DNA of 64,000 nt from a virus. Each line of letters starts with the position of its first letter. Positions within the stretch are counted from its first letter, which is position 1. Under the pieces are notes generated by a model. The model was not told the origin of the DNA. It ran no database searches and saw only the letters and a program-made list of their open reading frames with translations. A program made the translations under genes and the position numbers. The DNA is taken from IMG/VR virus record IMGVR_UViG_3300025598_002228, positions 5,029 through 69,028 of that record; one strand, written 5' to 3'. This document shows positions 1,412 through 64,000 of this stretch, piece by piece.

Positions 1412-1412
1412 G

Positions 1413-1814: not shown

Positions 1815-1819
1815 GATGA

Positions 1820-3241: not shown

Positions 3242-3243
3242 AA

Positions 3244-3516: not shown

Positions 3517-3603
3517 ATCTGCTTTACTTTAGAGAGACCTTTGGCTATCACGCTATGCAAATGTAGCGCATTATCTTAATTATACAAATTATTTTGCTTA
3601 ATT

Positions 3604-7279: not shown

Positions 7280-7302
7280 GATTTTAATGGTAATGATATA
7301 CA

Positions 7303-8472
7303 TTAGTGTACATCTTCCTGCTTCATAGCATCAGCTACTGCCGACTGCTCCACAGGCACATCCCGAATAACCTTCGGTGAATGGGTTAAAAAATATTGTT
7401 TAATGTTATCCGCAGCATTTTTGTCTCGGTCGTGTAATGTACCACACTCTGCACATATCCACTCGCGGGTAGCAAGGGTCAGTGTTTGGTTGAGCACACC
7501 ACAGATACCGCACTTCTTTGTAGAAGGTTCAAATCTGGGTATCTGGTAAAAGTGTTTACCTGACCATTCAGACTTGTATTTGATTGCTTCTACAAACATG
7601 CCCCAGCCCACATCAGCTATACCCTGTGCAAGCTTATGGTTTTTCATCATGCCGCTTATATTCAAATCTTCCTTCAAAATCGCATCGTGTATCCGAACTA
7701 ACTGTGAGGATAGTTTATGTATAAAGTCTTTTCTTTGATTAGCAATTTTTTCATGCTTAACAGCTACCTTATGTTGTGCTTTTTTTCTATTGGCACTACC
7801 TTTCTTTTTCTTTGATAGCCTTCTCTGTAAAATAAATAATCTCTCTATTGATTGCTTTAGGTACTTGGGGTTCTCTATTATCTCGCCATTACTTGTTACA
7901 GCGAACTTACTTAGCCCCATATCTATGCCGATTGTCCTCTTAGGTTTTGGAGTAATCTTCTCTGGTGTCTTCTCTCCTGTCTCACAAAGTATGGATACAA
8001 AGTATTTTCCTGTCGGGGTGCGCGATATTGTATTGCTTCTTATTTTCCCCTTGTGCTCGCGGTCTATAGCGACTTTTATTCCTTCGGTAAACTTGGGTAG
8101 GATTATCTTGCCATCTACAAACTTAACTTTATTCCCATGCGGATTTCTAAATGATTGAGAGCCTTTATTGCGGCTTTTGAACTTCGGATAGCCTTTGCCT
8201 TTAAAAAAGCCTTTAAACGCATCATCCATATTCCGTATGGCTTGTTGCGGGCACTGGCTGTCTACCTCATTGAGCCATGTAAATTCTTTCTTTAATGCTG
8301 GCAGTTGACCAATAAGGTCATATTTAGATAACGTCTTTCGATAGGATTTATAGGCATACGTCTTTGTATCCAGCGCAAGGTTATACACAAGCCTGCACGC
8401 ACCGATATGTTTATTTATCAGTATCTCTTGCGCTGAAGTCGGGTATAGCCTGTATATATATGCTTTTAACAC
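7303..8472 (-). CDS. tnpB: TnpB RNA-guided endonuclease (IS200/IS605 OrfB family)
   Basis: KAYIYRLYPT HTH, RuvC GIDMG / EDLNISGM / DRDKNAA, Zn finger CGIC..CAEC; no tnpA adjacent. Confidence 0.95.
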   Translation of the reverse strand: MLKAYIYRLYPTSAQEILINKHIGACRLVYNLALDTKTYAYKSYRKTLSKYDLIGQLPALKKEFTWLNEVDSQCPQQAIRNMDDAFKGFFKGKGYPKFKSRNKGSQSFRNPHGNKVKFVDGKIILPKFTEGIKVAIDREHKGKIRSNTISRTPTGKYFVSILCETGEKTPEKITPKPKRTIGIDMGLSKFAVTSNGEIIENPKYLKQSIERLFILQRRLSKKKKGSANRKKAQHKVAVKHEKIANQRKDFIHKLSSQLVRIHDAILKEDLNISGMMKNHKLAQGIADVGWGMFVEAIKYKSEWSGKHFYQIPRFEPSTKKCGICGVLNQTLTLATREWICAECGTLHDRDKNAADNIKQYFLTHSPKVIRDVPVEQSAVADAMKQEDVH

Positions 8473-48607: not shown

Positions 48608-48654
48608 GCTATTTGCGATTTTTGCAAAGATACAAAAAAATATATAAATGAATT

Positions 48655-51600: not shown

Positions 51601-53676
51601 CTTACCATTAGGCGCGAGCAATATCTCTCCGCCATCGGCATATTTTATATCATTTGGTATAGCTAAGTTTTGTGCTATGGCTTCAATAGCTTGGTCTGTT
51701 ACCTCTTTTTTTATCCTTCCATTTTCATCATAATAGTCGCCTATATAATCACCGAAAATAGAAGATTGAGGCGCAGCAATATATATTATAATGCCATCTT
51801 TTTGTTTTATCCTAATAAAATCTGGTGACTCGTCATCTTGTGATAATGCCATATTGTATATGCGACTTACACTATCAGCATAGGCATAATAATCTCCATT
51901 TATATAAATATAAACATCACTATTTTTATATTGCTGGTTGCTATTTTTTAAAAAAGCCAGCATTTTATTCATAGCACGTTTACCATTATACAATGATAAA
52001 TATTTTAAAATTATTTGTCGTGCTGTTTTATCATAAGGACTATCGGTGTTATTAAGAACTATTACTTTGGGCTTTTTTATTTCTTCTTTTACATTGCTAA
52101 TTGTAAATTTTTCCACCTCTCCGCCATCAGCATATTTCTTATGCTTGATATGAAGTTCATCCAGCAAATCATCATCTTGTATATAGTTACCGCTTTTTGA
52201 ATAGCCGTGCTCCGCCTTAAAGATAAAAGCATTAAGCCTTGCTAATCCCCATGCCATTCTCGAATTAGGCTTACCATCGGTTATAGTCGGTCTATGTGTT
52301 ACACTATATGCACCCATGCCTCTCCTTACAACTGCTTTGGCAGCATCCGATGATATTTTCTTTGATGGGTTTAATTTATTATATTCAGAAACCTTATGCT
52401 CAATTATTTTTACGATGGCAGCACTTAGTTCTATATTTTTTGCATGATTAAGGTCACTTGCACTATTCGGTGCATTTTTTTCTGAACAATGAATCCTATC
52501 TTTCAATGGGGCTGGTGTCTTAGAAGGATTAATTTCCCCACCATCTTCATGTTTAACTATACCGCCTTTATGCAACTCGGTTAATTCAATCAACTTTCCG
52601 TGCTTTATGAAGTCGTCTTGTAATTCAGGTATAAGATAATGCGTTTTTAGGGTAGAAGCACCATGACCGACTTTATTGGCAGCATACTTTACACATTTAT
52701 TGAACTCCCTCTTTCTTTTTTTCTCATCATTAATATCTTGCAGGTTGCATTTTTTTAACCTATCCAAGATATAATAATTAGCAGCATAACCGCGAATATC
52801 TTTCACCGATATTTTGTACTCTGATAAATACCTGTTTATTCGGTCAGCCTTTATCTGAAAGCCATCTTTAGTACAAAAGATAAAATCGCAATTAGATTCC
52901 TTTATAGCCCTTCTTAACTCCGATGCTAACAACTCATCAGTAAACTGTTTATTCTGCTCTGTACCTGATTTCCCGATATAATTCAGATATACGGTGTTTC
53001 CATCTATCTTGATGTGTTTTTTTTGTAATCCCGTAACTCCTACATGACCGTTGGCTGCTGATTCTTCATTGCCTACCCTCTCAGATGTTTTGTCAATAAC
53101 GGCTATTGCGAGAGCGGTAAGCCTGTCTTTATCATTACCCGATTTAATATCTCTGGTTACATTATTGCGTAAGCTTTGTATAGATTGTGCTATACTGGTG
53201 ATATGTTCTTTTTTTTTATCCCAGCGTTGCTTTAATTCATGGGGCGTTGCTTTAGGGGCTATCTTGCCACCTTTTTTCATGGTACTTTTACCAAAGCTTA
53301 CATTACAAGACTTTTCAGCTTGCATTTCATCCAATATCTGCCTTACAGTACCTTTGCGATTATGGGGTGCAGGGTCGAGCACTACGAGCCTGCACAGTAT
53401 AAAATCCCCGCTATCTGCATGGTGTTTATCAAATTTACATGAAAATTCATTATGGATATAGTCAAGAATTTTTTTATTGGTTTTATTGGTAAAAGTGAGA
53501 ATCTCATCCGAGTTATATGCATCTTCACATATCTTCATTTCGGAGCGTTCAACTTCGACCATCTGACTGCCATCAACAACTACTTTTATACCGCCGAGCG
53601 GATTACCGTGTTCATCGTAGTGCCTCTCCCCTACATACATGGGGCTTTTTGTATCATGGCTTTTTGTCATAATCAT
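48655..53676 (-). CDS. Polyvalent protein: TopIB, DUF5824-like, ADP-ribosyltransferase, Nudix, DUF3140, second ART-like, N6-adenine MTase
   Basis: RVGN/GKSG/KDIR/VGH/HYL; RRGMGAY..WGLARLNAF; VVYHGT..GFFF..EYIAFNPEQIK; GGVDAGE..AVKREIQEEIG; LVNMSAKEL..SLLIWGNDP; QYST/EPSAGNG/NPPF. Confidence 0.85.
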   Translation of the reverse strand: MIMTKSHDTKSPMYVGERHYDEHGNPLGGIKVVVDGSQMVEVERSEMKICEDAYNSDEILTFTNKTNKKILDYIHNEFSCKFDKHHADSGDFILCRLVVLDPAPHNRKGTVRQILDEMQAEKSCNVSFGKSTMKKGGKIAPKATPHELKQRWDKKKEHITSIAQSIQSLRNNVTRDIKSGNDKDRLTALAIAVIDKTSERVGNEESAANGHVGVTGLQKKHIKIDGNTVYLNYIGKSGTEQNKQFTDELLASELRRAIKESNCDFIFCTKDGFQIKADRINRYLSEYKISVKDIRGYAANYYILDRLKKCNLQDINDEKKRKREFNKCVKYAANKVGHGASTLKTHYLIPELQDDFIKHGKLIELTELHKGGIVKHEDGGEINPSKTPAPLKDRIHCSEKNAPNSASDLNHAKNIELSAAIVKIIEHKVSEYNKLNPSKKISSDAAKAVVRRGMGAYSVTHRPTITDGKPNSRMAWGLARLNAFIFKAEHGYSKSGNYIQDDDLLDELHIKHKKYADGGEVEKFTISNVKEEIKKPKVIVLNNTDSPYDKTARQIILKYLSLYNGKRAMNKMLAFLKNSNQQYKNSDVYIYINGDYYAYADSVSRIYNMALSQDDESPDFIRIKQKDGIIIYIAAPQSSIFGDYIGDYYDENGRIKKEVTDQAIEAIAQNLAIPNDIKYADGGEILLAPNGKISNLTPEQYKLVRTPEFISWFGDWLHDPANASKVVDENGEPLVVYHGTNTEFWKFDLKTKGKNTGWENTKYGFFFIADRGLAENFTKENGAGNRIISAFLSIKKPLDFTIAGLFTNEKQASDIVFALFGKKMESKKALSFLDENVGLGELGELMEELVTDKVYNHLKDKNYNGLISEFGKGIKEYIAFNPEQIKLADGTNTTFDPHNPDIRYEDGGDLKHQTVGCIIYHPEHGYLILKRGRLGESTDGMWHILSGGVDAGEDKDTAVKREIQEEIGYEGDMYIEHIESLPFEGYDFHYYYVELKDPIDISLNYENADVAWLTNLNDIFEYNLIPALEDYLQNNINVLTEYKQGGQFESENAHIYKIWKELVNMSAKELQVFYNSEEGKKAGLSSEQAHNLGIHYGRESARWIIKMKELPSQEWTPKMWEWAERQIRFIKRMSGNHGELIDKNGNKTRKYLSLLIWGNDPMKKENGGNIKMPKLYIHYSDAIFDKFAQAGDKEYTRKHSLTNKGIYFNEADTLIKYGKNKYEVQLFINKPFIINNGTHISEVKNPYTNKRIEVEHINEEDIKFLKEQGYDAVQAKYPAFQTVVFDKDQTRIIRRNGELINEPIYSSGGELTKSFEKKLEELLFMMSMQKIIADKLDLIDTEIKNYEYNLTALTADEYKFVSELFVDIESEVKHNKSSVEKIAAKYEITDKTQIKELTELAIILKGREISLKGKLTEKQKYEQLVKLYFNQPNLSHRSSESIKLQQYSTAIPIGYLMGLYCGIGSNKKTALYFEPSAGNGALTIAGYPDEFIVNELDKQRLKDLKFQNFKEVLNQDATKHFNGFDNKFDAVLTNPPFGAVDAIDYNGYKITSLEHTMALNALQTMKDEGKAAIIIGGHSAWDKEGRIQAGKNRSFFVLLNELYDVEDVINIDGHALYSRQGTAFDIRLILINGRRKKPAFPPLLNETLEATETNSGKVVKTFEDLWIRVDKIR

Positions 53677-53678
53677 GG

Positions 53679-54662
53679 TTAGGCTGCGCCTGTGGCTTTC
53701 TCTTTTTTTGCTTTTTCTAATTGCAACGCTGTCAATTCTGCCTGCATAGCACGTACTTCTTTATTTTCAAGATATTGAATTACGCCTAAAGTAGTGCCTA
53801 TTAAGCCTAATGCAATACTAAAAATTGTAAGATAATGACCGAGAGTAAGTTTTTCTTCACTTTGGGCTGACATAATTCAAAAATGTATTTTAGAGTTAGA
53901 AATATAACAAACAGAGCACATATAATAGTTGCCGTTGCTTTATATGCACTGAGCATTATCGTCTTAAATAAAGATATGAAATATAACATAAGGTAACAAA
54001 ATTAGCCCTTATTTATCTGCAATTGCTAATTTTATTCTCAATATCGCATTTGCGCTTATAAAGACTTTAATTTAGCTGTATCAGCAATTGTTGTGGTCTG
54101 TTTTATCGCTTCTAAATCTTCAATTGAATGCCCTTCATAAACATCTATAATTGAAATATTACTTTGAAGATATTGAATTACTCTCGCCAATGTTTCTGGT
54201 TTATTCAAAACATTTAACTCTCCACCCGCTCTTATGGCTGCTACTATACCTGTCGCCATTGTATCTATATCCTTCTTAATGGTCTCACCTGCACGTTGGG
54301 CATCTTTTGAATCAAAGAAAAAATCTTTATGATGGCTTATTTTAACCCTATGCGGTGAGGTATCGCTGTCAACGAGAATTGCTACTAAATGCTTCATATT
54401 ATTTATTTTTGAAATTTATATAATTTTTACCTTCATATTCTATATCATATACAATCACTGTATCTTTACCTGATTTGAAACGGCTAACTTCCTTTATTTT
54501 AACCAAGTCATCTTTATAGACATAGTTAGTGGTGTCCTCACATAGAATTATTATAATACTTATTATCGCTGTTATACCGATGGCAGATAAAAAATAATTC
54601 CTTATAAGTGTAAATATTTTTTTTAAACCTATCTCGTTGCTATCTTTAAAAGAATCTTCCAA
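53679..54662 (-). CDS. Small hypothetical proteins (53679 TM, 54056, 54399 TM)
   Basis: ORF track; TAAATTTG promoter near 54682. Confidence 0.5.
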
Positions 54663-54851
54663 TCTCTATCCTGTTTCATGCAAATTTAGTATTTTATCCG
54701 ATTTGAAAAAAACTTAATTAAATTAGGCAATGACTAACGAGTTACGACAAGATTTTATGATACATATGAATCTTATGTTATTTGTGTGTTTTTGCTATAT
54801 TGTAACATCTGACATTTTTACGTGTTGGTTGTGACTTATCCCGATAAAAAC

Positions 54852-57611
54852 CTATTCAATAGGAAACATACCTGCTGTATAGGTGTCATAAAGTTCAAAT
54901 AAAAATTCAATTCTCTTTATGTCTGTTGTAAAAGCAGGTTCTCGATAACATTTATCAACTGCTTTATCAAGCATATGGTGCGCCTGCAATAATTCATGAG
55001 GCATTAGTGATGTATCGTAAAGGTCTGCAAGGGAACTTCCCTCTCTAACGTATATTTCTCTTATATCAATTACCCTTTGGGCAGCTATCTCAACCGCATC
55101 TTTTTTTCTTTTTAGAATCCCGTTTGGAAATGGGAAGTTATTGTAAACAATTTCATTGCTGTATCTGTAATCACTTTTTATTCTTCCGCATACATACTTA
55201 ACCCAAGCCATATGCATAGCTGACGAGATAATGCCAAACTGGTAAAGTGTTGCATTGTCTATTGCTAGGCAACTATCACTTGCAATATTATTACTTGAAA
55301 AAAAACCAAAGGGTATATAATTCCTATTTTCAGATGAATGTCGTGGGATTAAGACATAATTTGATTTAGGCTGTCTAATTTCACCAAATAAATACGGGGT
55401 AGATGCCAATTTCTTCGTTGCTTCCCTGTTACTCTCTATACGATGCTTCCTAACTGCCTGCACGCGCTTATAAATTGCTGTTAAGCTCTTCAATTCATTT
55501 GGTTTAATTCCGACCAACCAAAGACACCATCTTTTTTTTCCATTAAGGTATTCATGGGCACTCAACAATGGCTTTATCCATTTTCTGGCGTTTGGCTCTT
55601 CTTTTATCAATTCCTTTTTTTCTTCGTCTGAGAGTAAAAGATGTCCTCCGTCATTTGGCATACTTCCGAATGATATTTCTGCCACATTGCATATTGGAGT
55701 TCTCCTCTTTAAAATTGTCGTGTCGTTCCCTTGAACTAAATAAGGGTTGATATTTCTCACTTTAAATCTATTAGGCTCACCCTTAATGTTATCATATTCA
55801 TATAGTAATTTATCTTTTAGGTTTTCCTTGCCAAATCCAATAACCACACAGTGAACAGCCGCTACACCTTCTGCCTCATTATGCCATCGAAAGGTTTGAT
55901 GAGCAAATTGAATTTTCAGTTTATATTTTCTAAATAAATAGCTCCATAAAATCCCCGTTTGTTCTCCCTGTGCAATACTATTTGTACTTACTAATGCAGT
56001 TCGTGTTTCTGTATGTACTTTCATGTATTCTGCTGCTTTTATATACCAACAAGCAACATAATCTAAAACGCCGTAACCATTAGCCTCGCTTAGTATTTTA
56101 TCAATATCTATTTTCTGCTCTGGCGATTGATGTTGCTTGCCAATGAACGGGGGATTACCTAATATGTATGAAAAGCTTTTGCCTTTTTTGTTTGTATCCC
56201 AATCTATATTTAAAGAATTATCATTCACAATAACAGCAGCTTCATCCAAAGGTATTGTAGGAACAGCTTTGCCAAATTCACTTTCAAGTCTCATGTTCAT
56301 TTGGTGTTCGGTTAGCCATAAAGCTACCTTTGAAATCATTGCAGAGGTGGGGTCAATTTCGTACCCATAAAAATTTTCAAGCGGTACATTACTTAGCCAA
56401 CTGGCATCTAGCACTCTTGTTCCTTTATATATTTTTCGGATTATCTCAATATCTAACAGACGCAATTCACGATATGTAACCACCAAGAAGTTGCCACATC
56501 CACAAGCGGGGTCTAAGAAAGTTAGTCCGTTTATTTTTGCTCTAAATCTCTCCAATGTGGATTTGTTGGTCTTTATATTTTCAAACTCTTCATGCAGGGT
56601 ATCGAGAAATAGTGGCTCAACAACTCTCTTAATGTTTTTTTCAGAGGTGTAGTGAGCACCCAAAGACCGTCTTTCGTCATTATTCATTACAGCTTGGAAT
56701 AGTGAGCCAAAGATTACAGGTGAAATATCTGACCAGTCATAAGCGCAACAATCTAAGAGGGCATCACGCAGGGCATTTGTTGTTGTTGGGACTTTGTGTA
56801 GTTTTATATTAAACAAATCTCCATTTACATAAGGGAACTTTGAAATGACCCCACTTAATATTTTGCGATTCTTTTTGTTAGTATTTAGTGTATCAAACAA
56901 AGAAAGTAAATGTTCACCAAGTGTTTTACCAGTCGTATATTCTCTAATATAATTTTCGAATTGTTTTTTTTCAAAAATGCCAGTATCCTCAGCAAATAGA
57001 CAAAAAAGGATTCTTGCTAATAAAATTGCAATATCATTTGAGTTGTACCCCTTGCGTTCAATAGCGTCATATACATTTGCAATTCGTCTTGCTGCTTCTT
57101 GATTTACCTTTTCCTCATCGGATTCTAAACGATTGGCAAACTCAAGAAAGAAAGCAAACTCATCTATTTTCGTTCCAATGTTTTCAAGCGGAACTTCAAT
57201 TTCAAATGAAATCTTTACTTTATCTGACTTGCTCATTTCGACAGAATACTTTTGTATTCTTTTGAAGTTCATTAGCAAAATAAATTGAGGTCTTTGATGT
57301 GGTAATAGGTTTTCAATATATTCCTCTGCTTGATGGAGCGTTTTATCCCAATGCTTAGGGTTATCCAAATGTGCCGATTTAGATTCAATAATTAGCTTAC
57401 CCGACCAGAACAAGTCAGCAAAGCCAGTTCCTGTTTCGTCTTTCTTTTGAATTGGCTTCTCGAATTGCGCCAAGTTCTTCCTATCGAGACCAAAGATTTT
57501 AAAAAACTCATTGGTAAATGTTTGCGATTCCGCCCTTTCTGTAGTAGTGCCTCTCCAACGAAGAATAAATGCCTCCGCACTATCTTTCATTTGTTTAGTT
57601 ATGATGGTCAT
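54852..57611 (-). CDS. MmeI-family Type IIL restriction-modification enzyme
   Basis: FADLFW..KLIIESKS nuclease, LGAHYTSE, FLDPACGCGNFL, GNPPFIG, SDYRYSNEIVYNNFPFP; 919 aa. Confidence 0.92.
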   Translation of the reverse strand: MTIITKQMKDSAEAFILRWRGTTTERAESQTFTNEFFKIFGLDRKNLAQFEKPIQKKDETGTGFADLFWSGKLIIESKSAHLDNPKHWDKTLHQAEEYIENLLPHQRPQFILLMNFKRIQKYSVEMSKSDKVKISFEIEVPLENIGTKIDEFAFFLEFANRLESDEEKVNQEAARRIANVYDAIERKGYNSNDIAILLARILFCLFAEDTGIFEKKQFENYIREYTTGKTLGEHLLSLFDTLNTNKKNRKILSGVISKFPYVNGDLFNIKLHKVPTTTNALRDALLDCCAYDWSDISPVIFGSLFQAVMNNDERRSLGAHYTSEKNIKRVVEPLFLDTLHEEFENIKTNKSTLERFRAKINGLTFLDPACGCGNFLVVTYRELRLLDIEIIRKIYKGTRVLDASWLSNVPLENFYGYEIDPTSAMISKVALWLTEHQMNMRLESEFGKAVPTIPLDEAAVIVNDNSLNIDWDTNKKGKSFSYILGNPPFIGKQHQSPEQKIDIDKILSEANGYGVLDYVACWYIKAAEYMKVHTETRTALVSTNSIAQGEQTGILWSYLFRKYKLKIQFAHQTFRWHNEAEGVAAVHCVVIGFGKENLKDKLLYEYDNIKGEPNRFKVRNINPYLVQGNDTTILKRRTPICNVAEISFGSMPNDGGHLLLSDEEKKELIKEEPNARKWIKPLLSAHEYLNGKKRWCLWLVGIKPNELKSLTAIYKRVQAVRKHRIESNREATKKLASTPYLFGEIRQPKSNYVLIPRHSSENRNYIPFGFFSSNNIASDSCLAIDNATLYQFGIISSAMHMAWVKYVCGRIKSDYRYSNEIVYNNFPFPNGILKRKKDAVEIAAQRVIDIREIYVREGSSLADLYDTSLMPHELLQAHHMLDKAVDKCYREPAFTTDIKRIEFLFELYDTYTAGMFPIE

Positions 57612-57728: not shown

Positions 57729-58676
57729 TTGCAAGTTATGATTAGTGTTTCTGGATTTAAAAGTGTTATAGCGGTTTTAGATTTTTTCAATACAAAAGAA
57801 AAATGCGTTGCTTACCTTGAGCAACAGAGATGGACAAATGGAGTCTGTTGCCCTAATTGCGGTCACGAAAAGGTATATCGCACGGCTCGCGGATTCAAAT
57901 GCGCCAACAAAGAATGTACACGAAAACATTTCACAGTTATATCGGGAACTATATTTGAAAATACTAAGATAGAATTACGTTACTGGTTCGCGGCTATCTA
58001 TTTAATCACAGCTCACAAAAAGGGTATCTCTTCACATCAGCTTGCTCGTGACTTAGGAGTAAGTCAAAAAACTGCATGGTTTTTAAATCACCGCATTCGT
58101 GAAATGATGCGTGTAAAATCTCCTCAGATATTAAGTAATGTAGTAGAGGTGGATGAGACTTTTGTTGGAGGAAAAAATAAGAACAGGCATAAGGATAAAA
58201 AAGTTGAAAACTCACAAGGGAGAAGCGTGAAAGATAAAACGCCAGTAGTCGGAATGATAGAGCGGGGAGGTATGCTTATTACAATGAAAGTAAAAGATAC
58301 AAAAGGGAAAACCTTAATGCCTGTAATCGTGAAAAATGTCAAAGAGGGGTCAACTGTTATGACTGATGAATGGGGTGGCTATAACAAGCTACGAACTAAA
58401 TTTGACCACATGGTTATCAACCATAAACTTGGCGAATATGTCAATGGTGATATTTACACAAATAGCATAGAGAACTATTGGTCACTCTTCAAACGTGGCA
58501 TCATTGGAATATACCACCACATCAGCGAAAAGCACCTTGACCGCTATTGTGATGAATTTGCTTACCGATTTAATTCACGTACTTTAAATGACCGTCAAAG
58601 GTTTGAAACTACACTTACAAATTGCAGTGGTAGATTAAGTTGGAACAACCTTGTTTTCGATACTGAAAGAGTATAA
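57729..58676 (+). CDS. IS1595-family (ISXO2-like) DDE transposase
   Basis: CPNC..C Zn ribbon, KKGISSHQL..QKTAW, VEVDETF, TDE, TNSIENYWS.FKRG, EF.YRFN. Confidence 0.95.
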   Translation: MQVMISVSGFKSVIAVLDFFNTKEKCVAYLEQQRWTNGVCCPNCGHEKVYRTARGFKCANKECTRKHFTVISGTIFENTKIELRYWFAAIYLITAHKKGISSHQLARDLGVSQKTAWFLNHRIREMMRVKSPQILSNVVEVDETFVGGKNKNRHKDKKVENSQGRSVKDKTPVVGMIERGGMLITMKVKDTKGKTLMPVIVKNVKEGSTVMTDEWGGYNKLRTKFDHMVINHKLGEYVNGDIYTNSIENYWSLFKRGIIGIYHHISEKHLDRYCDEFAYRFNSRTLNDRQRFETTLTNCSGRLSWNNLVFDTERV

Positions 58677-59023: not shown

Positions 59024-59403
59024 AACAGGGCGGTTGTACGTCCTTATGGTGATGCGCGAGCGCAATCACTAAATCCTTTTTTAAAAAAAATATTTATATC
59101 AGTACAGCCAAAAAGAATAGGCTTGGGATTCCTTCAACAATAGGAAAAATTTTACAACGATTTGGAACTATTATATTAATACAACCCTTCGTAGCAGTAT
59201 ATTGGATGCTATACAACGCTATGATAGAATGTTCAATTATGAACCGAAATTATTAAGGTAGATACAACAATCGACGTGTATTGTATTTGACATTGGATAT
59301 TATAACCACAATGTTTGAAGGGTAGATACAACATATGTATACGCGCCTATCCCTTTTAAGACAGTAATCGCTATTTTGGGTTAAATTTAGTAATAATTAA
59401 ATG

Positions 59404-60054
59404 TATAATTAAAATTAAAGTTATGGATAATATTTTAGGTAAAACAAAAACCGATTTAATTATTGAACCACAAGTTTTAATTGACTGGACAAGTGATGTG
59501 ATGGTAGCCTCTTTCGCTCACAGGGCTTTATACTATCATACATCATTTAAAAAAAGAATTTATATGTCTGCACAGCAATTATTCGATGAACATTTAATAA
59601 ACTTTAGAGAAACCGTATTCAAAAATACACTAACAATTGAACGCCTGACCAGTATATTAGAGCATATGTCTAAGGGGTGTATAGCAAAATACGTTTTAAA
59701 TGACTATGTAGGATACGCGTTTTTAGATGAACACAGAAAAGTATAACCTGAATGTATATAGCACATCTAAATTGGCTACATCAAGCCTTACTTGCAGACT
59801 TGCACTTTCTTCAACAGTAAAGGCAACATCCAAATTCTCACTAATAATGGCTTTAACCCATGTTCCTGCATTACCGCTGCCTCCATGTATGCTCAAAGCA
59901 AAATTGTTGTCTCCATCAAGTTGGGATATTGTAAATGTATTTGTGTTAGCAGGGAATTGTATTATTTCGGATTTTAAAACCGATTTTTCTCGGTCAGAGC
60001 AAAGAATAAGATTGATAATGTTCATATAATTGAAATTAAAGTTATGGATAATAT
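59404..60054 (+). repeat. 30-bp direct repeat spanning two gene starts
   Basis: TATAATT(A/G)AAATTAAAGTTATGGATAATAT at 59404-59433 and 60025-60054. Confidence 0.8.
59423..59746 (+). CDS. Hypothetical protein
   Basis: Starts MDNIL within the direct repeat. Confidence 0.55.
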   Translation: MDNILGKTKTDLIIEPQVLIDWTSDVMVASFAHRALYYHTSFKKRIYMSAQQLFDEHLINFRETVFKNTLTIERLTSILEHMSKGCIAKYVLNDYVGYAFLDEHRKV

Positions 60055-60253
60055 ATTGCAAGAGGAAAAACAAAGTGAGTTTAGGGAAATAACTAATGAA
60101 GAAAGCAATAAGTATTTCCTTGAGCTAATAGAGAAAATTCGTGAACCGTTTGCATCCGAATTTAGAGCCATATTAGAAAAATATCCTAACCCATGTAAAG
60201 AGAGGGCAGATTTAGTTACGGATGCTATAAATCGTTCTTACGAAAAACTTTAA
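60044..60253 (+). CDS. Hypothetical protein
   Basis: Starts MDNIL within the direct repeat. Confidence 0.55.
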   Translation: MDNILQEEKQSEFREITNEESNKYFLELIEKIREPFASEFRAILEKYPNPCKERADLVTDAINRSYEKL

Positions 60254-60549
60254 ATTTCTTGAAATATTATCAATACCTCATCCCATCTCACGGTTTCAAT
60301 AAATAGCTTACCGTTTTCATCATTAAGCCATGATTTGATTTTGTATTCATGGACATCGAATACAATAAAAGCGTCAGTATCATTTTTCCTAATGATTGTC
60401 CATGCCCTATATTTTTGTGATTTTATGAGAATTTTGGTATTATACCTATCACCGCTCGGTGCTATTCTTTGTGTAAAGAACTCATATAAATTTCCGTCTG
60501 AACTATCAAATATTTTGCCATATAAACTTTCAATCGCTATGTTATTCAT
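60250..60549 (-). CDS. Hypothetical protein
   Basis: 99 aa ORF. Confidence 0.45.
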   Translation of the reverse strand: MNNIAIESLYGKIFDSSDGNLYEFFTQRIAPSGDRYNTKILIKSQKYRAWTIIRKNDTDAFIVFDVHEYKIKSWLNDENGKLFIETVRWDEVLIIFQEI

Positions 60550-60855
60550 TTATGGTTTTTTGGGCAATTTATTTGAATTATCAAATCGTGGTATATTTGA
60601 ATTATAAACAACAAATAAACCATAAAGTCATGGTTTATTTGTTTCAGGCTTTTTGAGTGTTTATATTAAGATTATGCTATTTAAAGAACTTACGAAATTG
60701 TCAATGGAAGCACTGGCGAAGCAACAGTCAGTGACACTTGAACAGGCAAAAGCGCAAACAAAAAGGGTACAGGAAAGGATTTCAAAAAAGAAAGAAGTAC
60801 CCGACAAAAAAATCACCGAAGACCCTGCGGATAAGCCTATTTCTTTTCAGGCAAG

Positions 60856-61158
60856 TTAAAAATCGAATAAATCTTTTGGATGTATATTCAGTGCATCGCA
60901 TATTGCTTTTATATGCGTAAGGCTTGTATTGGCTTTGCCTAATTCTATTCGGTTAATGGTACTTTCTTCAATATCGCACATATAGCCCAAAACTTCTTGG
61001 GTTAACCCCTTATCCTTTCGTATCTGCCTGACTTTTAAGCCAAAGGATATTATAAAGTTTATATGCCTTGTTCTTTTCACATTGAATATTGTAAAAAGAA
61101 TACGAAAACGAGATTGTGATATATGCCTGCTTGTGATTTTTAATATATATTTGGGCAT
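60856..61158 (-). CDS. XRE-family HTH regulator
   Basis: FGLKVRQIRKDKGLTQEVLG...INRIELGKANTSL...LNIHPKDLF; true start probably internal. Confidence 0.85.
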   Translation of the reverse strand: MPKYILKITSRHISQSRFRILFTIFNVKRTRHINFIISFGLKVRQIRKDKGLTQEVLGYMCDIEESTINRIELGKANTSLTHIKAICDALNIHPKDLFDF

Positions 61159-61180
61159 TATTTAACTTAAAAACAACTCA

Positions 61181-61750
61181 ATGAAAAAAACAATGTTATC
61201 CTTTATCAGGACAAGCAGGCTATTGAAGCCATTAGTAATTTGTGTGCTATTTTCTACATTATCATTAACCATTAAAGCGGGTACACCCGAAGATGTAACA
61301 GTACCCTCTGGCGCATCAGTACCGTTACAAGTAGCGCAGAAAATTTCCACATCCCATCAGAAACATAAAGCAGGGGAAAAAATAGCTTTAACCGTAACAT
61401 CTGATGTAAGTGTTAATGGTAAAGTAGTGATTAAAGGGGGTTCGGCTGCTGAGGGGGTTATCAAGGAATTTAAAAAGCAGAAAGGCTTAGGTAAACAGGG
61501 TATAATTAAAATAGAGATTCTAAATGTAAAGGCTGTTGACGGCAGCACAATAGCTTTATCGCCTTGCCCTATATCTGATGAAGGCGAAAAAAGGCTCGGT
61601 TTGGCATTAGGGCTTGGATTAGGTTTGGGGCTTCTTGTTATGCCGCCCTTATTAGCTTGTATGGCAATAAAAGGGAAGCCAGCAAACATAGAATCGGGGT
61701 ATAGTTTAAACTGTACTGTATTAAGTAATACAACCGTAAAAGTTCAATAA
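61181..61750 (+). CDS. Secreted/membrane beta-rich protein
   Basis: Signal peptide, VSVNGKVVIK.G, C-terminal hydrophobic hairpin. Confidence 0.65.
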   Translation: MKKTMLSFIRTSRLLKPLVICVLFSTLSLTIKAGTPEDVTVPSGASVPLQVAQKISTSHQKHKAGEKIALTVTSDVSVNGKVVIKGGSAAEGVIKEFKKQKGLGKQGIIKIEILNVKAVDGSTIALSPCPISDEGEKRLGLALGLGLGLGLLVMPPLLACMAIKGKPANIESGYSLNCTVLSNTTVKVQ

Positions 61751-61777
61751 ATTTTTAAATCAATAAATCAATAAGCA

Positions 61778-62230
61778 ATGAAAAAATCCTTCTTTTTCGG
61801 CATTTGCGCCTTTCTTTTAATTACGGCTATCAGTTCTTGTTCTAAGAATAACTCTGCTCCTGATTTAACTACGAACCTTGTTGGTGTATATTCAGGTAAT
61901 ATTGGAGATTCTCTTTATAGCGGTTCTTCATACACGCAAGCATCAAGTAGCGTAACTGTTACTAAAATTGACAATACGCATATTCAGGTAACGCCACAAA
62001 CAGGCTATATTCCTTTTACAGCTACTCTCACAGGCACTACTAATGGAGATTATATTGCAGTAAATTCGGGTACAGTTAACGGTACTACGTATGTTGGTGG
62101 TACATTCAATAGCATATCTATACCAGCAGGATTTAATGGACTATTCAATACGAATACCAATCAGTTTGCATATAGCTTGAATGCAAATAACGGCAATGGA
62201 TTTACGGAGCAATTTGTTGGAACTAAATAA
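61778..62230 (+). CDS. Lipoprotein
   Basis: MKKSFFFGICAFLLITAISSC lipobox. Confidence 0.75.
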   Translation: MKKSFFFGICAFLLITAISSCSKNNSAPDLTTNLVGVYSGNIGDSLYSGSSYTQASSSVTVTKIDNTHIQVTPQTGYIPFTATLTGTTNGDYIAVNSGTVNGTTYVGGTFNSISIPAGFNGLFNTNTNQFAYSLNANNGNGFTEQFVGTK

Positions 62231-62252
62231 TAGAATAGCTTTCCGAAAGTTT

Positions 62253-62282
62253 AAAGCCCCGCCATTAAAAGCGGGGCTTTTT
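62253..62282. terminator. Intrinsic terminator between convergent genes
   Basis: AAAGCCCCGC-CATTAAAA-GCGGGGCTTTTT. Confidence 0.85.
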
Positions 62283-62306
62283 ATTTAGCAAAAATAAGTA
62301 ACAAGG

Positions 62307-63320
62307 TTATTTAGCTTCTGCTGTTTTTTTTGCCTTCTTTTTGCGCGGGTAAACAATTCGTTTAACATCTCCCTTCGGTTTATAATCGGTAAAACACTTC
62401 TCATCGCTGACTGCATTCTCTATGGTTTCACCAAAAGCCTGATTTTGTGTTAAATCCCTTCGGTTATAACGGTAGCAAAATTCGGCTAAGTAAAAAGGCA
62501 GGTATTTTTTGCTTAACACATGGTATTGCCCCCTTATGCCATTTTTGATTATTGACCAAAAGCCTTCAATAGTGTTAGTATGCGTTTTACCCCTTGAATA
62601 CTCTTTCGCTGAATGGTTTATCACATACCTTTCAATAAGTTCATCCATCTTCTTATATGCCCTGTAATCGTCTGTAATCAATATGCTGTCTTTAGTCTTT
62701 ACTGTTTTCTTTAACAAGGATATGAGTTCTTTAGAAGTCAGCCTATCCATTACTTTGGCTACTACATGCCCCTTGCGCTGTACTATACCCGCTATGGGTA
62801 TCTTCTTAGTACCACGCCCTCTCTTTATTCTTTCATCCTTTCGGTCATATACGTTGCTCAAGTCGGCTACATTGCTCGGTACTACAGAAGGGTTATTGCG
62901 CTTTCTCGGCTTACCGCCTACATAGCTTTCGTCCATCTCTACTATGCCCTCCAACATTTCTCCCCAGTCGAGCATAGCACAGCGTACCCGCATAGCACTA
63001 TACCATGCTGTTTTATAGGTTACACCTATATCCCTGCTTATTTGCATTGCTGATATACCCTTTTTAGCATTTAGCATCAGAAAGATTAACTGAAACCATT
63101 TTGGTAGTGCTAACCTGCTTTGTTCAAATATTGTCTCATAAAGCACAGAATAGTCCCTGTTGCAGTCATTACAATGCCAGCGTATACCCGATTTCCTTCG
63201 GTACACTTTTATTGAGCCGCATAGCAGGCAGGCAGGCGTATCGCCCCATCTAACCTTTTCCAAATGAGCAATACATTTTTCATTGGTGTTGTACTTGGTA
63301 GAAAGCTGTGTTAAATTCAT
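62307..63320 (-). CDS. IS1595-family DDE transposase (second, divergent)
   Basis: CLLC..CNDC, KKGISAMQI..YKTAW, VEMDESY, TDD, TNTIEGFWS.IKNG, EFCYRYNRR. Confidence 0.93.
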   Translation of the reverse strand: MNLTQLSTKYNTNEKCIAHLEKVRWGDTPACLLCGSIKVYRRKSGIRWHCNDCNRDYSVLYETIFEQSRLALPKWFQLIFLMLNAKKGISAMQISRDIGVTYKTAWYSAMRVRCAMLDWGEMLEGIVEMDESYVGGKPRKRNNPSVVPSNVADLSNVYDRKDERIKRGRGTKKIPIAGIVQRKGHVVAKVMDRLTSKELISLLKKTVKTKDSILITDDYRAYKKMDELIERYVINHSAKEYSRGKTHTNTIEGFWSIIKNGIRGQYHVLSKKYLPFYLAEFCYRYNRRDLTQNQAFGETIENAVSDEKCFTDYKPKGDVKRIVYPRKKKAKKTAEAK

Positions 63321-63419
63321 TGCTTTTTCTTTTGTTTTAGTTATCTAATAAGTATCTTTGTATCTCAAACACGCATGATACGGTTGGCTCGTTGTGCCCT
63401 CACGGTCTTGCAAGTTTGA

Positions 63420-63495
63420 TGGTCAGTCGTACAGGATTTGAACCCGTATTTATAAGGTGAGCGCCTCATTGTTCTATCCGTTGAACTAACGACCG
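63420..63495 (-). ncRNA. tRNA-like element 1 (76 nt, CCA end, non-canonical anticodon loop)
   Basis: CGGTCGT/ACGACTG acceptor, GTTC/GAAC D-stem, ATGAG/CTTAT stem with 8-nt loop GCGCTCAC, ACGGG-TTCAAAT-CCTGT T-arm, ACCA. Confidence 0.7.
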
Positions 63496-63501
63496 AATTT
63501 T

Positions 63502-63531
63502 AAAAGTCCCTAAGCCAATAGGGGCTTTTTT
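63502..63531 (+). terminator. Hairpin terminator after unit 1
   Basis: AAAAGTCCCTA-AGCCAA-TAGGGGCTTTTTT. Confidence 0.7.
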
Positions 63532-63553
63532 ATTTCAAATAATTTGTATCTTC

Positions 63554-63628
63554 GTGGAGTGGATGGGTTTCGAACCCATTTCCCAGAGTGTGAAATTCGT
63601 GGATGTTAACCAATTACACCACCACCCC
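63554..63628 (-). ncRNA. tRNA-like element 2
   Basis: GGGGTGG/CCACTCC acceptor, GTGT/ACAT D-stem, bulged anticodon arm, ATGGG-TTCGAAA-CCCAT. Confidence 0.6.
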
Positions 63629-63663
63629 AAAACTCTCAGCATTAGTAGTGCTGAGGGTTTTTT
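63629..63663 (+). terminator. Hairpin terminator after unit 2
   Basis: AAAACTCTCAGCA-TTAGTAG-TGCTGAGGGTTTTTT. Confidence 0.75.
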
Positions 63664-63686
63664 GTTTTCAAATATTTCTTATCTTT

Positions 63687-63755
63687 GTGGAGCGGATGGG
63701 AATCGAACCCATTTTAGTAGCGTTGAGAATCGCACTTTTGACCTTCAACCGCCCC
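63687..63755 (-). ncRNA. tRNA-like element 3 (shrunken D-arm, tmRNA-end-like)
   Basis: GGGGCGG/CCGCTCC acceptor, ATGGG-TTCGATT-CCCAT T-arm, GCG-ATTCTCAA-CGC arm. Confidence 0.55.
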
Positions 63756-63758
63756 CCG

Positions 63759-63793
63759 AAAGCCTCAGATGTTAGAGCATCTGAGGCTTTTTT
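63759..63793 (+). terminator. Hairpin terminator after unit 3
   Basis: AAAGCCTCAGATG-TTAGAG-CATCTGAGGCTTTTTT. Confidence 0.75.
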
Positions 63794-64000
63794 ATTTTTC
63801 GGCAGTAAAGGTCGAAGTATATAGTCTGAAAAAGATTGCAGGTTTGTTGCAAAAAGATTGCAAAAACGTTGCAGGAAATTTATTTAAAAATGGAGGCGTA
63901 TATTTTGTCCAGTACGGCGTAATCTCCCCCTAAAAACTTAGGGTCATCTAAAGTTTTTGGTTCTATGTTTCGAAGGGTCTCACGTAGCGTTCTCCCTTGT

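What the first reader, a model, noticed from the sequence alone, without database searches (positions are those of the whole stretch)
63345..63930. Array of three tRNA-mimic units wired for antisense transcription beside an IS1595 transposase
Seen: three minus-strand cloverleaf-like elements with good acceptor and T arms but aberrant 8-9 nt anticodon loops, all containing TCA (GCGCTCAC, ATTTCACAC, ATTCTCAA). On the plus strand each is preceded by a Bacteroidota -7 box (TATCTTTG 63353, TATCTTCG 63547, TATCTTTG 63680) and followed immediately by a hairpin+U-tract. Each unit therefore reads promoter / anti-tRNA / terminator. Units 2 and 3 share TTTCAAATA..TATCTT.GTGGAG.GGATGGG..TCGAACCCATTT. The array lies between the transposase start and a TIR-like 24-mer (63906-63929). 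Inference: non-decoding tRNA decoys (e.g. against anticodon nucleases), antisense RNAs to host tRNA/tmRNA, UGA-related suppressors, or RNAs linked to transposon targeting.
Basis: partly seen in the sequence, partly recalled or inferred. Interest (0 to 1): 0.75.

Follow-up and report, generated by a model that had tools for sequence, protein, structure and literature searches.

The report
Transposon-borne alanine-type tRNA look-alikes
The three odd tRNA-like genes are real and belong to a so far undescribed family of alanine-tRNA-derived genes that a group of Bacteroidota jumping genes always carries just in front of its transposase gene; what they do is still unknown.

Summary
Three minus-strand cloverleaf units (U1 63423-63495, U2 63555-63628, U3 63688-63755) are separated by hairpins that are good plus-strand terminators. 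Each has a Bacteroidota -7 box on the plus strand.

The '24-mer TIR' is not a TIR. The real transposon end, CGCGCCTATCCCTTTTAAGACAGTA, lies at 59342-59366. The other end lies beyond the window. The contig's 4.65-kb 'inverted terminal repeat' is two inverted copies of this IS1595-type transposon.

In all 13 loci (12 distinct) of the two nearest transposase clades, a tRNA-like gene sits 26-100 nt upstream of the transposase ATG, on the same strand and inside the inverted repeats. One relative is a complete 3.9-kb copy with an 8-bp target duplication.

The main class (12 units, including U2 and U3) keeps G3:U70 and A73 in 12 of 12, with neighbouring pairs covarying. Nine of the 12 have a loop YU-(U/C)GA-CA: a serine anticodon, an abnormal C37 and no long variable arm. 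Host tRNA-Ala genes are the nearest ordinary relatives.

The window's three units have eroded or altered anticodon arms.

The structured strand is the transposase strand. The antisense promoter and terminator are conserved only in the window's clade.

Function is unproven. I found nothing like it in print.

The parts
63423..63495 (-). U1: tRNA-like gene of the second class. It has C1-G72, G2:U71, A73 and an encoded CCA at 63420-63422, a 6-bp anticodon stem and a 6-nt loop CGCUCA.
   Evidence: Rfam tRNA 43.6 bits. ARAGORN tRNA-???. Fold. R1 39.2 bits. It is identical to the L197 unit at all 26 5' positions and at 24 of the last 25 positions. The differences (8 substitutions and 1 indel) lie in positions 27-48.
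63555..63628 (-). U2: member of the alanine-identity class (G3:U70, A73). Its loop UU-UCA-CA has C at position 35 where the family has G. The two loop-proximal stem pairs are lost compared with L116.
   Evidence: Rfam tRNA 37.9 bits. R1 72.1 bits. 75% identical over 81 nt to the L116 unit. Alignment A1.
63688..63755 (-). U3: alanine-identity class with a collapsed D arm and an 8-nt loop AUUCUCAA.
   Evidence: Match to the tmRNA-model ends only, 31.7 bits. R1 46.5 bits. G3:U70 seen in A1.
63502..63536 (.). H1: hairpin flanked by an A-run and a T-run. It has T6 on the plus strand and T4 on the minus strand, and lies 5' of U1.
   Evidence: flanks
63629..63668 (.). H2: hairpin between U3 and U2. 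It is a plus-strand terminator with T6; the minus strand has T4.
63758..63799 (.). H3: hairpin 5' of U3. It is a plus-strand terminator with T6; the minus strand has T3.
63353..63360 (+). Antisense -7 box TATCTTTG, 62 nt from the U1 3' end.
63547..63554 (+). Antisense -7-like box TATCTTCG (one mismatch) abutting the U2 3' end.
63680..63687 (+). Antisense -7 box TATCTTTG abutting the U3 3' end.
62307..63320 (-). IS1595-family transposase, 337 aa.
   Evidence: Pfam DDE_Tnp_IS1595 4.8e-35 and Zn_ribbon_IS1595 1.4e-09. NCBIfam transpos_IS1595 5.8e-60.
59342..59366 (+). Terminal inverted repeat at the transposase-distal end of the transposon. It coincides with the inner edge of the contig's 4.65-kb repeat.
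63880..63999 (-). Last 39 codons of a passenger ORF that runs off the window, upstream of the array.
63829..63872 (.). Direct repeats (AAAAAGATTGCA.. twice; TGCAA motifs) between the passenger ORF and H3. Relatives have repeats of other sequence in the same place.
   Evidence: family D9. Repeats in relatives read by eye.

Best explanation
What it is. The three units are genuine minus-strand tRNA-like genes. They are cargo of an IS1595-family transposon of Bacteroidota that is at least 4.66 kb long (TIR CGCGCCTATCCCTTTTAAGACAGTA, 8-bp target duplication in relatives). In this transposon lineage a cassette of passenger ORF, short direct repeats and tRNA-like gene always lies directly upstream of the transposase, on its strand.

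The family. The main class derives from tRNA-Ala. It keeps the alanine identity set (G3:U70, A73) and the tRNA elbow. Its anticodon loop is YU-(U/C)GA-CA: a serine UCN anticodon, a pyrimidine at position 37 and no long variable arm.

The window. The window holds a three-unit version. U2 and U3 are of the alanine class with eroded anticodon or D arms. U1 is of a second class with a 6-nt loop.

How it most likely works (inferred, not shown). The minus-strand RNA is transcribed with the passenger ORF and/or the transposase. It is released by RNase P and RNase Z, receives CCA, and for U2 and U3 is a substrate of AlaRS. In this clade each unit is also covered by a short plus-strand antisense transcript, running from a -7 box at its 3' end to a terminator at its 5' end. 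That transcript would limit the tRNA-like RNA and read-through into the transposase gene.

What the alanylated RNA then does is open. It could mis-decode serine codons at low efficiency, or act as a tRNA mimic. The window's own units, lacking the consensus loop, probably do not decode normally.
For: Transposon frame.
- Two identical copies in genome G004 define a 1512-bp IS with 26-bp TIRs and 8-bp target duplications.
- The same TIR type bounds a complete 3.9-kb copy in L197 (564-4470) with the duplication TTTTTATT. That copy contains a U1-like unit.
- The window has this TIR at 59342-59366, at the edge of the 4.65-kb contig repeat.

Linkage to the transposase.
- Of 13 loci in clades A and B (12 distinct; L286 is a near-copy of L116), 13 have a unit on the transposase strand 26-100 nt before the ATG: the window, L197, L116, L286, L287, L288, L117, L119, L310, L311, L313, L316 and L317.
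- Model R1 scores the well-formed alanine-class units 72-82 bits, the degenerate L287 and U3 39.3 and 46.5 bits, and the L197 unit 46.2 bits.
- In 5 host genomes every hit of 73 bits or more (7 hits) is transposase-linked.

Structure and strand.
- On 12 alanine-class units, 93.0% of cells pair against 68.9% in shuffles (0 of 500 reach it).
- 15 of 22 pairs change on both sides. The covariation score is 0.598 against 0.209, and 0.06-0.16 with slid partners.
- G3:U70 is G:U in 12 of 12.
- There are 32 G:U wobbles on the transposase strand against 5 A:C.
- G53, U54, U55 and A58 are invariant; U8, U33, A36, C37 and A38 are at least 90% conserved.

Anticodon loop.
- ARAGORN types 8 units as 'tRNA-Ser' (tga, cga, act or gct) although none has a long arm.
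- The loops are listed.

Antisense layout.
- Terminators.
- -7 boxes in clade A.
- By contrast, 5 of 7 clade-B units have a sense-strand TAnnTTT(A/G) box 14-22 nt upstream.

Established knowledge, recalled. G3:U70 is the major AlaRS determinant. Bacterial SerRS needs the long variable arm. Position 37 is normally a purine. CCA-less precursors are cut by RNase Z.
Against: - No expression data: no RNA run holding the stretch was listed.
- Within clade A alone the strand test is weak. Leaving out 3:70, there are 4 G:U against 3 A:C (from the per-unit counts). No sense-strand -7 box lies within 120 nt upstream of any clade-A unit. So in the window the antisense RNA could be the main product.
- U2's anticodon stem is down to 3 of 5 pairs, U3 lacks a D arm, and U1 has a 6-nt loop. 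These could be decaying copies.
- Metagenome contigs include a form that joins 63536 to 63797, without U2 and U3.
- C37 argues against efficient decoding.
- No serine-to-alanine recoding signal was found in the transposase genes.
- Aminoacylation, processing and any effect on transposition are all untested.
Confidence: 0.55

Rival explanations
1. The plus-strand antisense RNAs are the functional products. Each is a roughly 100-nt sRNA made from its own -7 promoter and ended by its own terminator. The tRNA shape would be only inherited from the gene it overlaps. The sRNA would act on the transposase leader or on another RNA.
For: - Exact or one-mismatch -7 boxes lie at the 3' end of 8 of 9 clade-A units. 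The variable 'nn' positions differ (TC, CA, AT) while TA and TTTG are kept (by eye).
- The hairpins have T5-T7 on the plus strand and T3-T5 on the minus strand.
- No sense-strand -7 box lies within 120 nt upstream of any clade-A unit.
Against: - G3:U70 would be a conserved C:A mismatch in the antisense RNA, yet it is kept in 5 of 5 clade-A alanine-class units and 12 of 12 overall.
- The T loops fit the tRNA consensus only on the minus strand.
- Clade B has the units but no antisense box in 0 of 7. L119 and L311 instead have an antisense-oriented terminator between unit and transposase.
- No other complementary target exists in two host genomes.
Confidence: 0.15
2. The window's three units are decaying pseudogenes: duplicated copies of the family's functional tRNA-like gene that are no longer used. 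They would be kept only by linkage.
For: - None of the three has the family's 7-nt YU-NGA-CA loop.
- U2 lost two stem pairs, U3 lost its D arm, and U1 has a 6-nt loop.
- R1 scores fall to 46.5 and 39.2 bits for U3 and U1.
- A population variant lacks U2 and U3.
Against: - Acceptor and T arms are fully paired, and G3:U70 is kept in U2 and U3.
- U1 is identical to the L197 unit outside positions 27-48 apart from one T-loop base, while the transposases are only 89-90% identical in protein. This looks like focused change in the anticodon arm, not general decay.
- The flanking terminators and -7 boxes are intact.
Confidence: 0.15
3. They are tRNA mimics that serve as decoys or antidotes for a tRNA-targeting enzyme. 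That enzyme could be a host anticodon nuclease, or the variable passenger protein encoded just upstream. No decoding would be involved.
For: - The unit subtype follows the passenger-ORF family rather than the transposase tree. L313 and L317 have near-identical transposases but different passenger and unit types.
- Change is concentrated in the anticodon arm of U1-type units.
- The carrier element encodes candidate counter-defence proteins, a polyvalent ART/TopoIB/NUDIX protein.
- The L197 passenger has a weak local match to seryl-tRNA(Sec) kinase: NCBIfam E 2e-5, far below the cutoff; PDB 3adb E 0.013.
Against: - No passenger protein has a recognised nuclease, toxin or tRNA-binding family.
- The P2 passenger model has no PDB fold match.
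- A decoy would not obviously need G3:U70 and A73.
Confidence: 0.1
4. They are ordinary decoding tRNA genes carried by a mobile element, like phage tRNA genes, and the tRNA finders mis-scored them.
For: U1 and U2 pass the Rfam tRNA gathering score. U1 encodes CCA.
Against: - ARAGORN cannot assign an anticodon.
- The loops are 6, 9-11 and 8 nt long.
- Across the family the identity set (alanine) and the anticodon (serine) disagree, and position 37 is C.
Confidence: 0.03

Closest known systems
Bacterial tRNA-Ala
   Same: - G1-G3 start, G3:U70 and A73.
- 7/5 acceptor/T architecture and canonical T-loop elements.
- Host tRNA-Ala genes are the best non-family hits to model R1 (59.9-64.2 bits). The P1-type units share the acceptor and T-arm pattern with them.
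   Different: - The anticodon is UGA or CGA (serine), or in the window UCA or an irregular loop, instead of UGC or GGC.
- Position 37 is C instead of A.
- The D arm differs.
- CCA is mostly not encoded.
- The gene lies inside a transposon directly before the transposase.
Irregular and mistranslating bacterial tRNAs: allo-tRNAs (Mukai et al., Nucleic Acids Res 2017, PMC5389517; I read passages only) and the tRNAPro-type mistranslators (recalled, not read here)
   Same: They are natural tRNAs whose identity elements and anticodon disagree. Some allo-tRNAs carry G3:U70. The passages I read report allo-tRNA genes near toxin-antitoxin systems and a transposon-related ORF, and polycistrons of irregular tRNAs. 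A review passage notes that natural mistranslators carry handicapping loop features such as G33 or A33 (PMC11415595).
   Different: - Allo-tRNAs have 8/4 or 9/3 acceptor/T branches; the units here are 7/5.
- The host phylum differs: Bacteroidota here, mainly Acidobacteria and others there.
- The fixed position in front of an IS1595 transposase, the NGA-CA loop and the antisense cassette are not described in the passages I read.
Antisense control of transposase genes (IS10 RNA-OUT type; recalled from textbook knowledge)
   Same: An outward-facing promoter near the transposase 5' end produces a short terminated RNA antisense to the transposase leader transcript.
   Different: Here the antisense RNA would not cover the start codon. 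It would cover a tRNA-like gene in the leader. The layout is repeated per unit and is found only in clade A.
tmRNA tRNA-like domain
   Same: U2 and U3 match both ends of the Rfam tmRNA model, that is the alanine-type acceptor plus T arm (31.7 and 24.1 bits).
   Different: The scores are below the gathering score of 47. There is no tag reading frame and no pseudoknots. The units are only 68-74 nt long.
IS1595-family elements with passenger genes (ISfinder subgroups; recalled)
   Same: DDE_Tnp_IS1595 plus Zn-ribbon transposase, TIRs, 8-bp duplications and variable passenger genes.
   Different: In 3 literature searches I found no report of a tRNA-like gene as a constant passenger.

Membership tests
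tRNA (Rfam RF00005) | Covariance-model score at or above the gathering score of 29 bits | tested here: met
   U1 scores 43.6 and U2 37.9 bits. U3 gets no tRNA-model hit listed; it matches only the tmRNA-model ends at 31.7 bits, below 47. So the feature is met for 2 of 3 units.
tRNA (canonical decoder) | 7-nt anticodon loop with U33 and a purine at 37, on a 5-bp stem | tested here: not met
   U1 has a 6-nt loop on a 6-bp stem. U2 has a 9-11 nt loop with 3 of 5 stem pairs. U3 has an 8-nt loop. The family consensus has C37.
tRNA-Ala identity (AlaRS substrate) | G3:U70 wobble pair and A73 | tested here: met
   U2 and U3 have both. G:U is present in 12 of 12 class members. U1 has G2:U71 and G3-C70 instead, so it does not meet the feature.
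tRNA-Ala identity (AlaRS substrate) | Actual alanylation | not testable with these tools
   Needs an aminoacylation assay.
Bacterial tRNA-Ser | Long variable arm (class II tRNA) | tested here: not met
   All units are 67-75 nt long with a 4-nt variable region, although ARAGORN labels 8 of them Ser by anticodon.
tmRNA | Tag reading frame and pseudoknots between the tRNA-like ends; Rfam gathering score of 47 | tested here: not met
   Scores are 31.7 and 24.1 bits, with about 300 model positions deleted. ARAGORN finds no tmRNA.
allo-tRNA | 8/4 or 9/3 acceptor/T-stem branch | tested here: not met
   A 7-bp acceptor and 5-bp T stem fit all 12 units, with 96-100% of cells paired.
IS1595-family transposon | DDE_Tnp_IS1595 transposase with N-terminal Zn ribbon | tested here: met
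IS1595-family transposon | Terminal inverted repeats and 8-bp target duplication enclosing the units | tested here: inconclusive
   Met in relatives: L197 (TIRs at 564 and 4470, duplication TTTTTATT) and the G004 copies. In the window only one TIR (59342-59366) is inside the sequence; the other end lies beyond the contig end.
Transposase-linked tRNA-like family defined here (model R1) | R1 score in the family range (72-82 bits) and the YU-NGA-CA loop | tested here: inconclusive
   U2 scores 72.1 bits but its loop is UU-UCA-CA. U3 scores 46.5 and U1 39.2 bits with other loops.
cis-antisense sRNA gene | Promoter and intrinsic terminator bracketing the unit on the opposite strand | tested here: met
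   Sequence signals only. Transcription itself could not be tested.
Opal (UGA) suppressor tRNA | Anticodon UCA at positions 34-36 of a functional anticodon arm | tested here: inconclusive
   Only U2 has UCA at the homologous positions, and its stem is eroded. The window's long ORFs read normally in code 11.

The most novel reading that the evidence does not exclude
The family may be a transposon-encoded, AlaRS-charged tRNA that reads serine codons. It would be a deliberately handicapped (C37) mistranslator, co-expressed with the transposase. In the window's clade it would be paired with a cis-antisense RNA. The stable tRNA would act as an RNA toxin or stress inducer and the antisense RNA as its antidote: an RNA-only addiction or regulation module for a DDE transposon.
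Probability: 0.15. Interest if true: 0.9.

Novelty: new variant of a known kind. Interest (0 to 1): 0.72.

Why it matters
Natural tRNAs whose charging identity and anticodon disagree are rare, and their biology is poorly understood. Here such a gene is a constant companion of a transposase across several Bacteroidota orders. It is kept by covariation, exchanged as a cassette, and sometimes wrapped in antisense control.

If the RNA is charged and used, it would link transposition to controlled mistranslation or to a new kind of RNA-based addiction. If it is a mimic, it points to an unknown tRNA-directed conflict system.

Either way, the family gives a defined and easily cloned set of sequences to test. 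It also explains a class of 'tRNA-???' and short 'tRNA-Ser' calls next to IS1595 transposases. Finally, it shows that this 'virus' record's inverted terminal repeats are two transposon copies, not genome ends.

Tried and rejected
1. Similar DNA elsewhere. blastn of 63330-64000 against the phage and plasmid collections found no match. tblastn of the transposase against plasmids found no match.

2. Pattern scans of viral contigs.
- T-arm and acceptor pattern: 3 hits, none a family member; the 2 that ARAGORN called are ordinary phage tRNAs.
- Promoter plus acceptor pattern: 0 hits.
- Looser pattern: 28 hits, of which 27 are ordinary tRNAs ending CCA-AGATA and 1 has a permuted-tmRNA-like arrangement.
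- Loop plus T-arm pattern: 7 hits, all ordinary tRNAs (Val, Gln and others) scoring at most 51.6 bits with R1.

3. Metagenome scan with a 25-mer of U1: 0 hits.

4. Neighbour ORF 61778-62230: no relatives in viral contigs.

5. Transposase relatives in viral contigs (at most 47% identity). ARAGORN found no same-strand upstream tRNA-like gene in 57 of the 80 loci; the other 23 were not scanned.

6. RNA evidence. No RNA holder was listed. Only DNA contigs of 4 runs were laid.

7. Recoding of the transposase by the tRNA. Conserved-alanine columns stay GCN (6 columns). None of the 7 serine columns is fixed to TCA or TCG. L287's transposase was not picked up by my script and was left out of both counts and of the tree.

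8. TIR search by simple inverted-repeat alignment failed. It succeeded only after copies in one genome were compared.

9. Passenger proteins.
- No Pfam or NCBIfam family, apart from the weak PSTK-like stretch in L197.
- The Atlas gave only hypothetical Bacteroidota clusters, with DUF6043 and DUF6617 as leads that I did not test.
- The word-index search found 2 proteins.
- The HMMER library found 78.
- hhalign P2-P3 gave E 0.015 and P2-P1 gave E 0.38, so homology is not shown.
- The profile against PDB sequences found nothing below E 0.2.
- The AlphaFold model of the P2 passenger (pLDDT 86.7) has no Foldseek PDB match at E <= 0.001; the best is E 0.64.

10. Ideas considered and dropped.
- Att-site relics: dropped because the cloverleaves are complete and covary.
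- IS insertion target: dropped because the units lie inside the TIRs.
- TTGACA as a -35 box: dropped because there is no -10 at the right spacing and the U34-to-C34 variants keep NGA.
- Loop mimic of the TIR: dropped because the loop does not follow the TIR differences between clades.

11. Literature. Searches found nothing on tRNA-like genes in IS1595 elements. Supplements were not opened.

Full report
**The observation**

The region 63345-63930 holds three cloverleaf-like units on the minus strand.
- ARAGORN calls two of them 'tRNA-???', with a 2-base and a 4-base 'anticodon'.
- Rfam's tRNA model scores them 43.6 and 37.9 bits against a gathering score of 29.
- The third unit matches only the acceptor and T-arm ends of the tmRNA model, at 31.7 bits, below threshold.
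- Single-sequence folds give a clean cloverleaf for U1, with a 6-bp anticodon stem and a 6-nt loop. U2 and U3 fold less regularly.

On the plus strand each unit is followed by a terminator-like hairpin. The scan found 6 such sites in 62200-64000 against 2.0 expected. Each unit is preceded by TATCTTTG, TATCTTCG or TATCTTTG. Units 2 and 3 share a 60-nt stretch at 83% identity.

It lies in the last codons of an ORF that runs off the window end.

**The setting**

The window is bases 5029-69028 of a 69,028-bp IMG/VR record classed as having inverted terminal repeats. The first and last roughly 4.65 kb are inverted copies of each other: identical up to position 2123, then decaying after about 4400. 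The array is therefore present twice.

The element carries these genes:
- a polyvalent protein with TopoIB, ART-PolyVal and NUDIX domains;
- a Sno/SNF2-like helicase;
- an MmeI-type enzyme;
- DnaB;
- several transposases.

Most other ORFs tested have no family.

Metagenome contigs from four freshwater runs cover the region and run past the window end, so base 64000 is not a physical end. They also show variants: a form joining 63536 to 63797 that lacks U2 and U3, and a U1 with a different anticodon arm. No RNA run was listed.

**Link to the transposase**

Distant transposase relatives in viral contigs (at most 47% identity) have no such units. ARAGORN scanned 57 of the 80 loci and found none. 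The close relatives do have them.

In species genomes and metagenome contigs I examined 13 loci (12 distinct) of the two nearest clades:
- Clade A: the window, L197, L116 with its near-copy L286, L287 and L288.
- Clade B: L117, L119, L310, L311, L313, L316 and L317.

Every one has a tRNA-like gene on the transposase strand, 26-100 nt before the ATG. Ten score 38.9-53 bits with Rfam tRNA, counting only the unit upstream of each transposase. L287 and the L288 upstream unit were found by eye and with my model.

Eleven loci of a third Bacteroidota clade, with about 50% identity, have none. One of them, L289, has a hairpin remnant ending ...CTCCAAATGTA.

On the transposase tree, clades A (99/97) and B (100/100) are well supported. 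The trait needs two changes on the best tree, but a single origin is not excluded.

**Cargo, not target**

Two identical copies in one genome (G004) define a 1512-bp IS with 26-bp terminal inverted repeats and 8-bp target duplications. Searching for that repeat type gave four results:
- L197 holds a complete 3.9-kb transposon (564-4470) flanked by the duplication TTTTTATT. Inside are a passenger ORF, direct repeats, a hairpin, a U1-like unit, the transposase and two small genes. The two small genes are homologous to window ORFs 60856-61158 and 59723-60073.
- L117 and L119 have the left repeat 1.1-1.26 kb upstream of the ATG.
- The window has a perfect copy of the repeat at 59342-59366, exactly at the inner edge of the contig's 4.65-kb repeat.
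- So the record's 'ITRs' are two inverted copies of a transposon at least 4.66 kb long, whose far end lies beyond the contig. The array is cargo inside it.

**The family**

Twelve units form one class: U2, U3, L116, L287, the L288 upstream unit, L117, L119, L310, L311, L313, L316 and L317. They align over 76 columns. On a standard 7/4/6/5 cloverleaf:
- 93.0% of cells pair, against 68.9% in shuffles (0 of 500 reach it).
- 15 of 22 pairs change on both sides.
- The covariation score is 0.598, against 0.209 in shuffles and 0.06-0.16 with slid partners.

Pair 3:70 is G:U in 12 of 12, while pairs 4:69 to 7:66 covary. A73 is invariant. There are 32 G:U wobbles on this strand against 5 A:C, so the structured RNA is on the transposase strand. 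The elbow elements G53, U54, U55 and A58 are invariant.

Nine of the twelve have the loop Y-U-(U/C)-G-A-C-A. Seven read UGA and two read CGA; both are serine UCN anticodons. C37 and A38 are constant, and the variable region is 4 nt. ARAGORN labels such units 'tRNA-Ser' by anticodon.

By established rules (recalled), G3:U70 with A73 specifies AlaRS, and bacterial SerRS needs a long variable arm. These RNAs would therefore be charged, if at all, with alanine.

My covariance model R1 separates the family from everything else:
- In five host genomes all seven hits of 73 bits or more are the transposase-linked units.
- The P1-type units resemble those tRNA-Ala genes in acceptor and T arm.

A second class comprises U1, the L197 unit and L288d1. 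It has another acceptor stem and AGY-type serine anticodons (ACU, GCU) or a shortened loop. L288 also has a unit with an alanine anticodon (UGC) but no G3:U70.

**The window's units within the family**

- U2 is a clear member: 72.1 bits, and 75% identical to the L116 unit. Position 35 is C, giving UCA, and the two loop-proximal stem pairs are gone.
- U3 scores 46.5 bits. It keeps acceptor, T arm and G3:U70 but has no D arm and an 8-nt loop.
- U1 scores 39.2 bits. It is identical to the L197 unit outside positions 27-48 apart from one T-loop base. It differs there at 8 positions plus an indel. The metagenome variant is a third version of the same arm.

Change is thus focused on the anticodon arm. 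None of the three units has the consensus loop.

**Sense and antisense signals**

In clade A, 5 of 9 units have an exact TAnnTTTG on the opposite strand within 62 nt of the 3' end. Three of these abut it: U3, L116 and the L288 upstream unit. Three more have a one-mismatch box: U2, L197 and L287, read.

In clade A a GC-rich hairpin with an A-run on one side and a T-run on the other lies just 5' of each upstream unit and of L288d1. The T-run is longer on the antisense side. No sense-strand -7 box lies within 120 nt upstream of any clade-A unit.

In clade B there is no antisense box (0 of 7). Five of the 7 units have a sense-strand TAnnTTT(A/G) box 14-22 nt upstream.

The antisense RNA has no other target in two host genomes.

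**Cassette behaviour**

The ORF upstream of the unit falls into three families: P1, P2 and P3. None could be shown homologous to another or to any known family. The P2 model is confident but matches no solved fold.

The unit subtype follows the passenger family, not the transposase tree. L313 and L317 have near-identical transposases, lie 5.5 kb apart in one genome, and carry different cassettes.

Different short direct repeats lie between passenger ORF and unit in each element. They look like operator sites; this is an inference.

**Tests of function that were possible**

If the RNA recoded the transposase gene, serine codons should sit at conserved alanine columns, or a serine codon should be fixed as TCA or TCG. 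Neither is seen.

I found no paper on tRNA-like genes in IS1595 elements. The nearest published parallels are allo-tRNAs and irregular tRNA polycistrons found near toxin-antitoxin genes and a transposon-related ORF (PMC5389517, passages). A review also remarks that natural mistranslators carry handicapping loop features (PMC11415595, passage).

**Verdict**

What the array is can be stated with good confidence. It consists of non-canonical, tRNA-Ala-derived genes that are constant cargo of a Bacteroidota IS1595-type transposon lineage. In this window the cargo is tripled and altered in the anticodon arms. In this clade it is wrapped in antisense promoter-terminator pairs.

How it works is inference. 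I favour an expressed, processed and, for U2 and U3, alanylatable minus-strand RNA under cis-antisense control, tied to transposase expression.

The rivals remain open until strand-specific RNA data and charging assays exist. They are an antisense sRNA as the main product, decaying copies, and a decoy for a tRNA-directed enzyme.

Noticed in passing
window 59342-64000 and G000:C1:1-4659: The record's 4.65-kb 'inverted terminal repeats' are two inverted copies of an IS1595-type transposon. The contig ends lie inside both copies, and metagenome contigs continue past the window end. The roughly 60-kb segment between them could be a composite transposon or simply lie between two insertions.
   Followed up: partly
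window 57729-58676 (+): A second IS1595-family transposase, about 37% identical to the first, lies just outside the transposon end.
   Followed up: no
window 4538-8472 (-): A DnaB-like helicase appears as two ORFs (5951-7303 and 4538-5818, the latter matching only the DnaB C-terminus). They lie next to a phrog_506 transposase (7303-8472). The gene may be split or carry an insert.
   Followed up: no
window 42797-57611 (-): A block of three large genes: a 1936-aa Sno/SNF2-like helicase; a 1673-aa polyvalent protein (TopoIB, ART-PolyVal, NUDIX, DUF3140); and a full MmeI-type restriction-modification enzyme. This is typical of conjugative or phage-like elements. CheckV rates the record 39% complete.
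   Followed up: no
L288:1249-1408 (-): Downstream of the transposase in this relative lie two more tRNA-like genes. One has a Ser GCU anticodon and normal loop but no long arm (Rfam 61.1 bits). The other has an Ala UGC anticodon but no G3:U70 (52.1 bits). Identity set and anticodon thus look mismatched in the other direction as well.
   Followed up: partly
L197:740-1420 (+): The passenger ORF of the complete transposon has a short local match to L-seryl-tRNA(Sec) kinase: NCBIfam TIGR03574 at E 2e-5 and 24 bits, far below the cutoff; PDB 3adb at E 0.013, residues 28-76 against 115-163. No P-loop is visible.
   Followed up: partly
L119:2357-2367 and about 2465-2475: The 11-mer GACTCGACACC occurs in the anticodon-like loop and again about 35 nt upstream of the transposase ATG, on the same strand.
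   Followed up: no
L116 (G001) and L286 (G358): The hairpin, unit and leader (161 nt) are 100% identical in genomes of two different species. This indicates recent horizontal spread.
   Followed up: no
G424 contig C63 (L313, L317): Two near-identical transposase genes lie 5.5 kb apart and carry different passenger ORF plus tRNA-like cassettes (P1 type and P2 type).
   Followed up: partly
L088-L115 (viral contigs): Many phage tRNA genes in unrelated contigs end ...CCA followed directly by AGATA. My pattern enforced this, but it recurs between successive tRNAs of the same arrays. L096 shows a permuted-tmRNA-like arrangement.
   Followed up: no
window 63829-63872: Direct repeats rich in TGCAA lie between the passenger ORF end and the first hairpin. 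L119 has similar CTGCAAT/CTGCAAC repeats in the same place, and other relatives have repeats of unrelated sequence.
   Followed up: no
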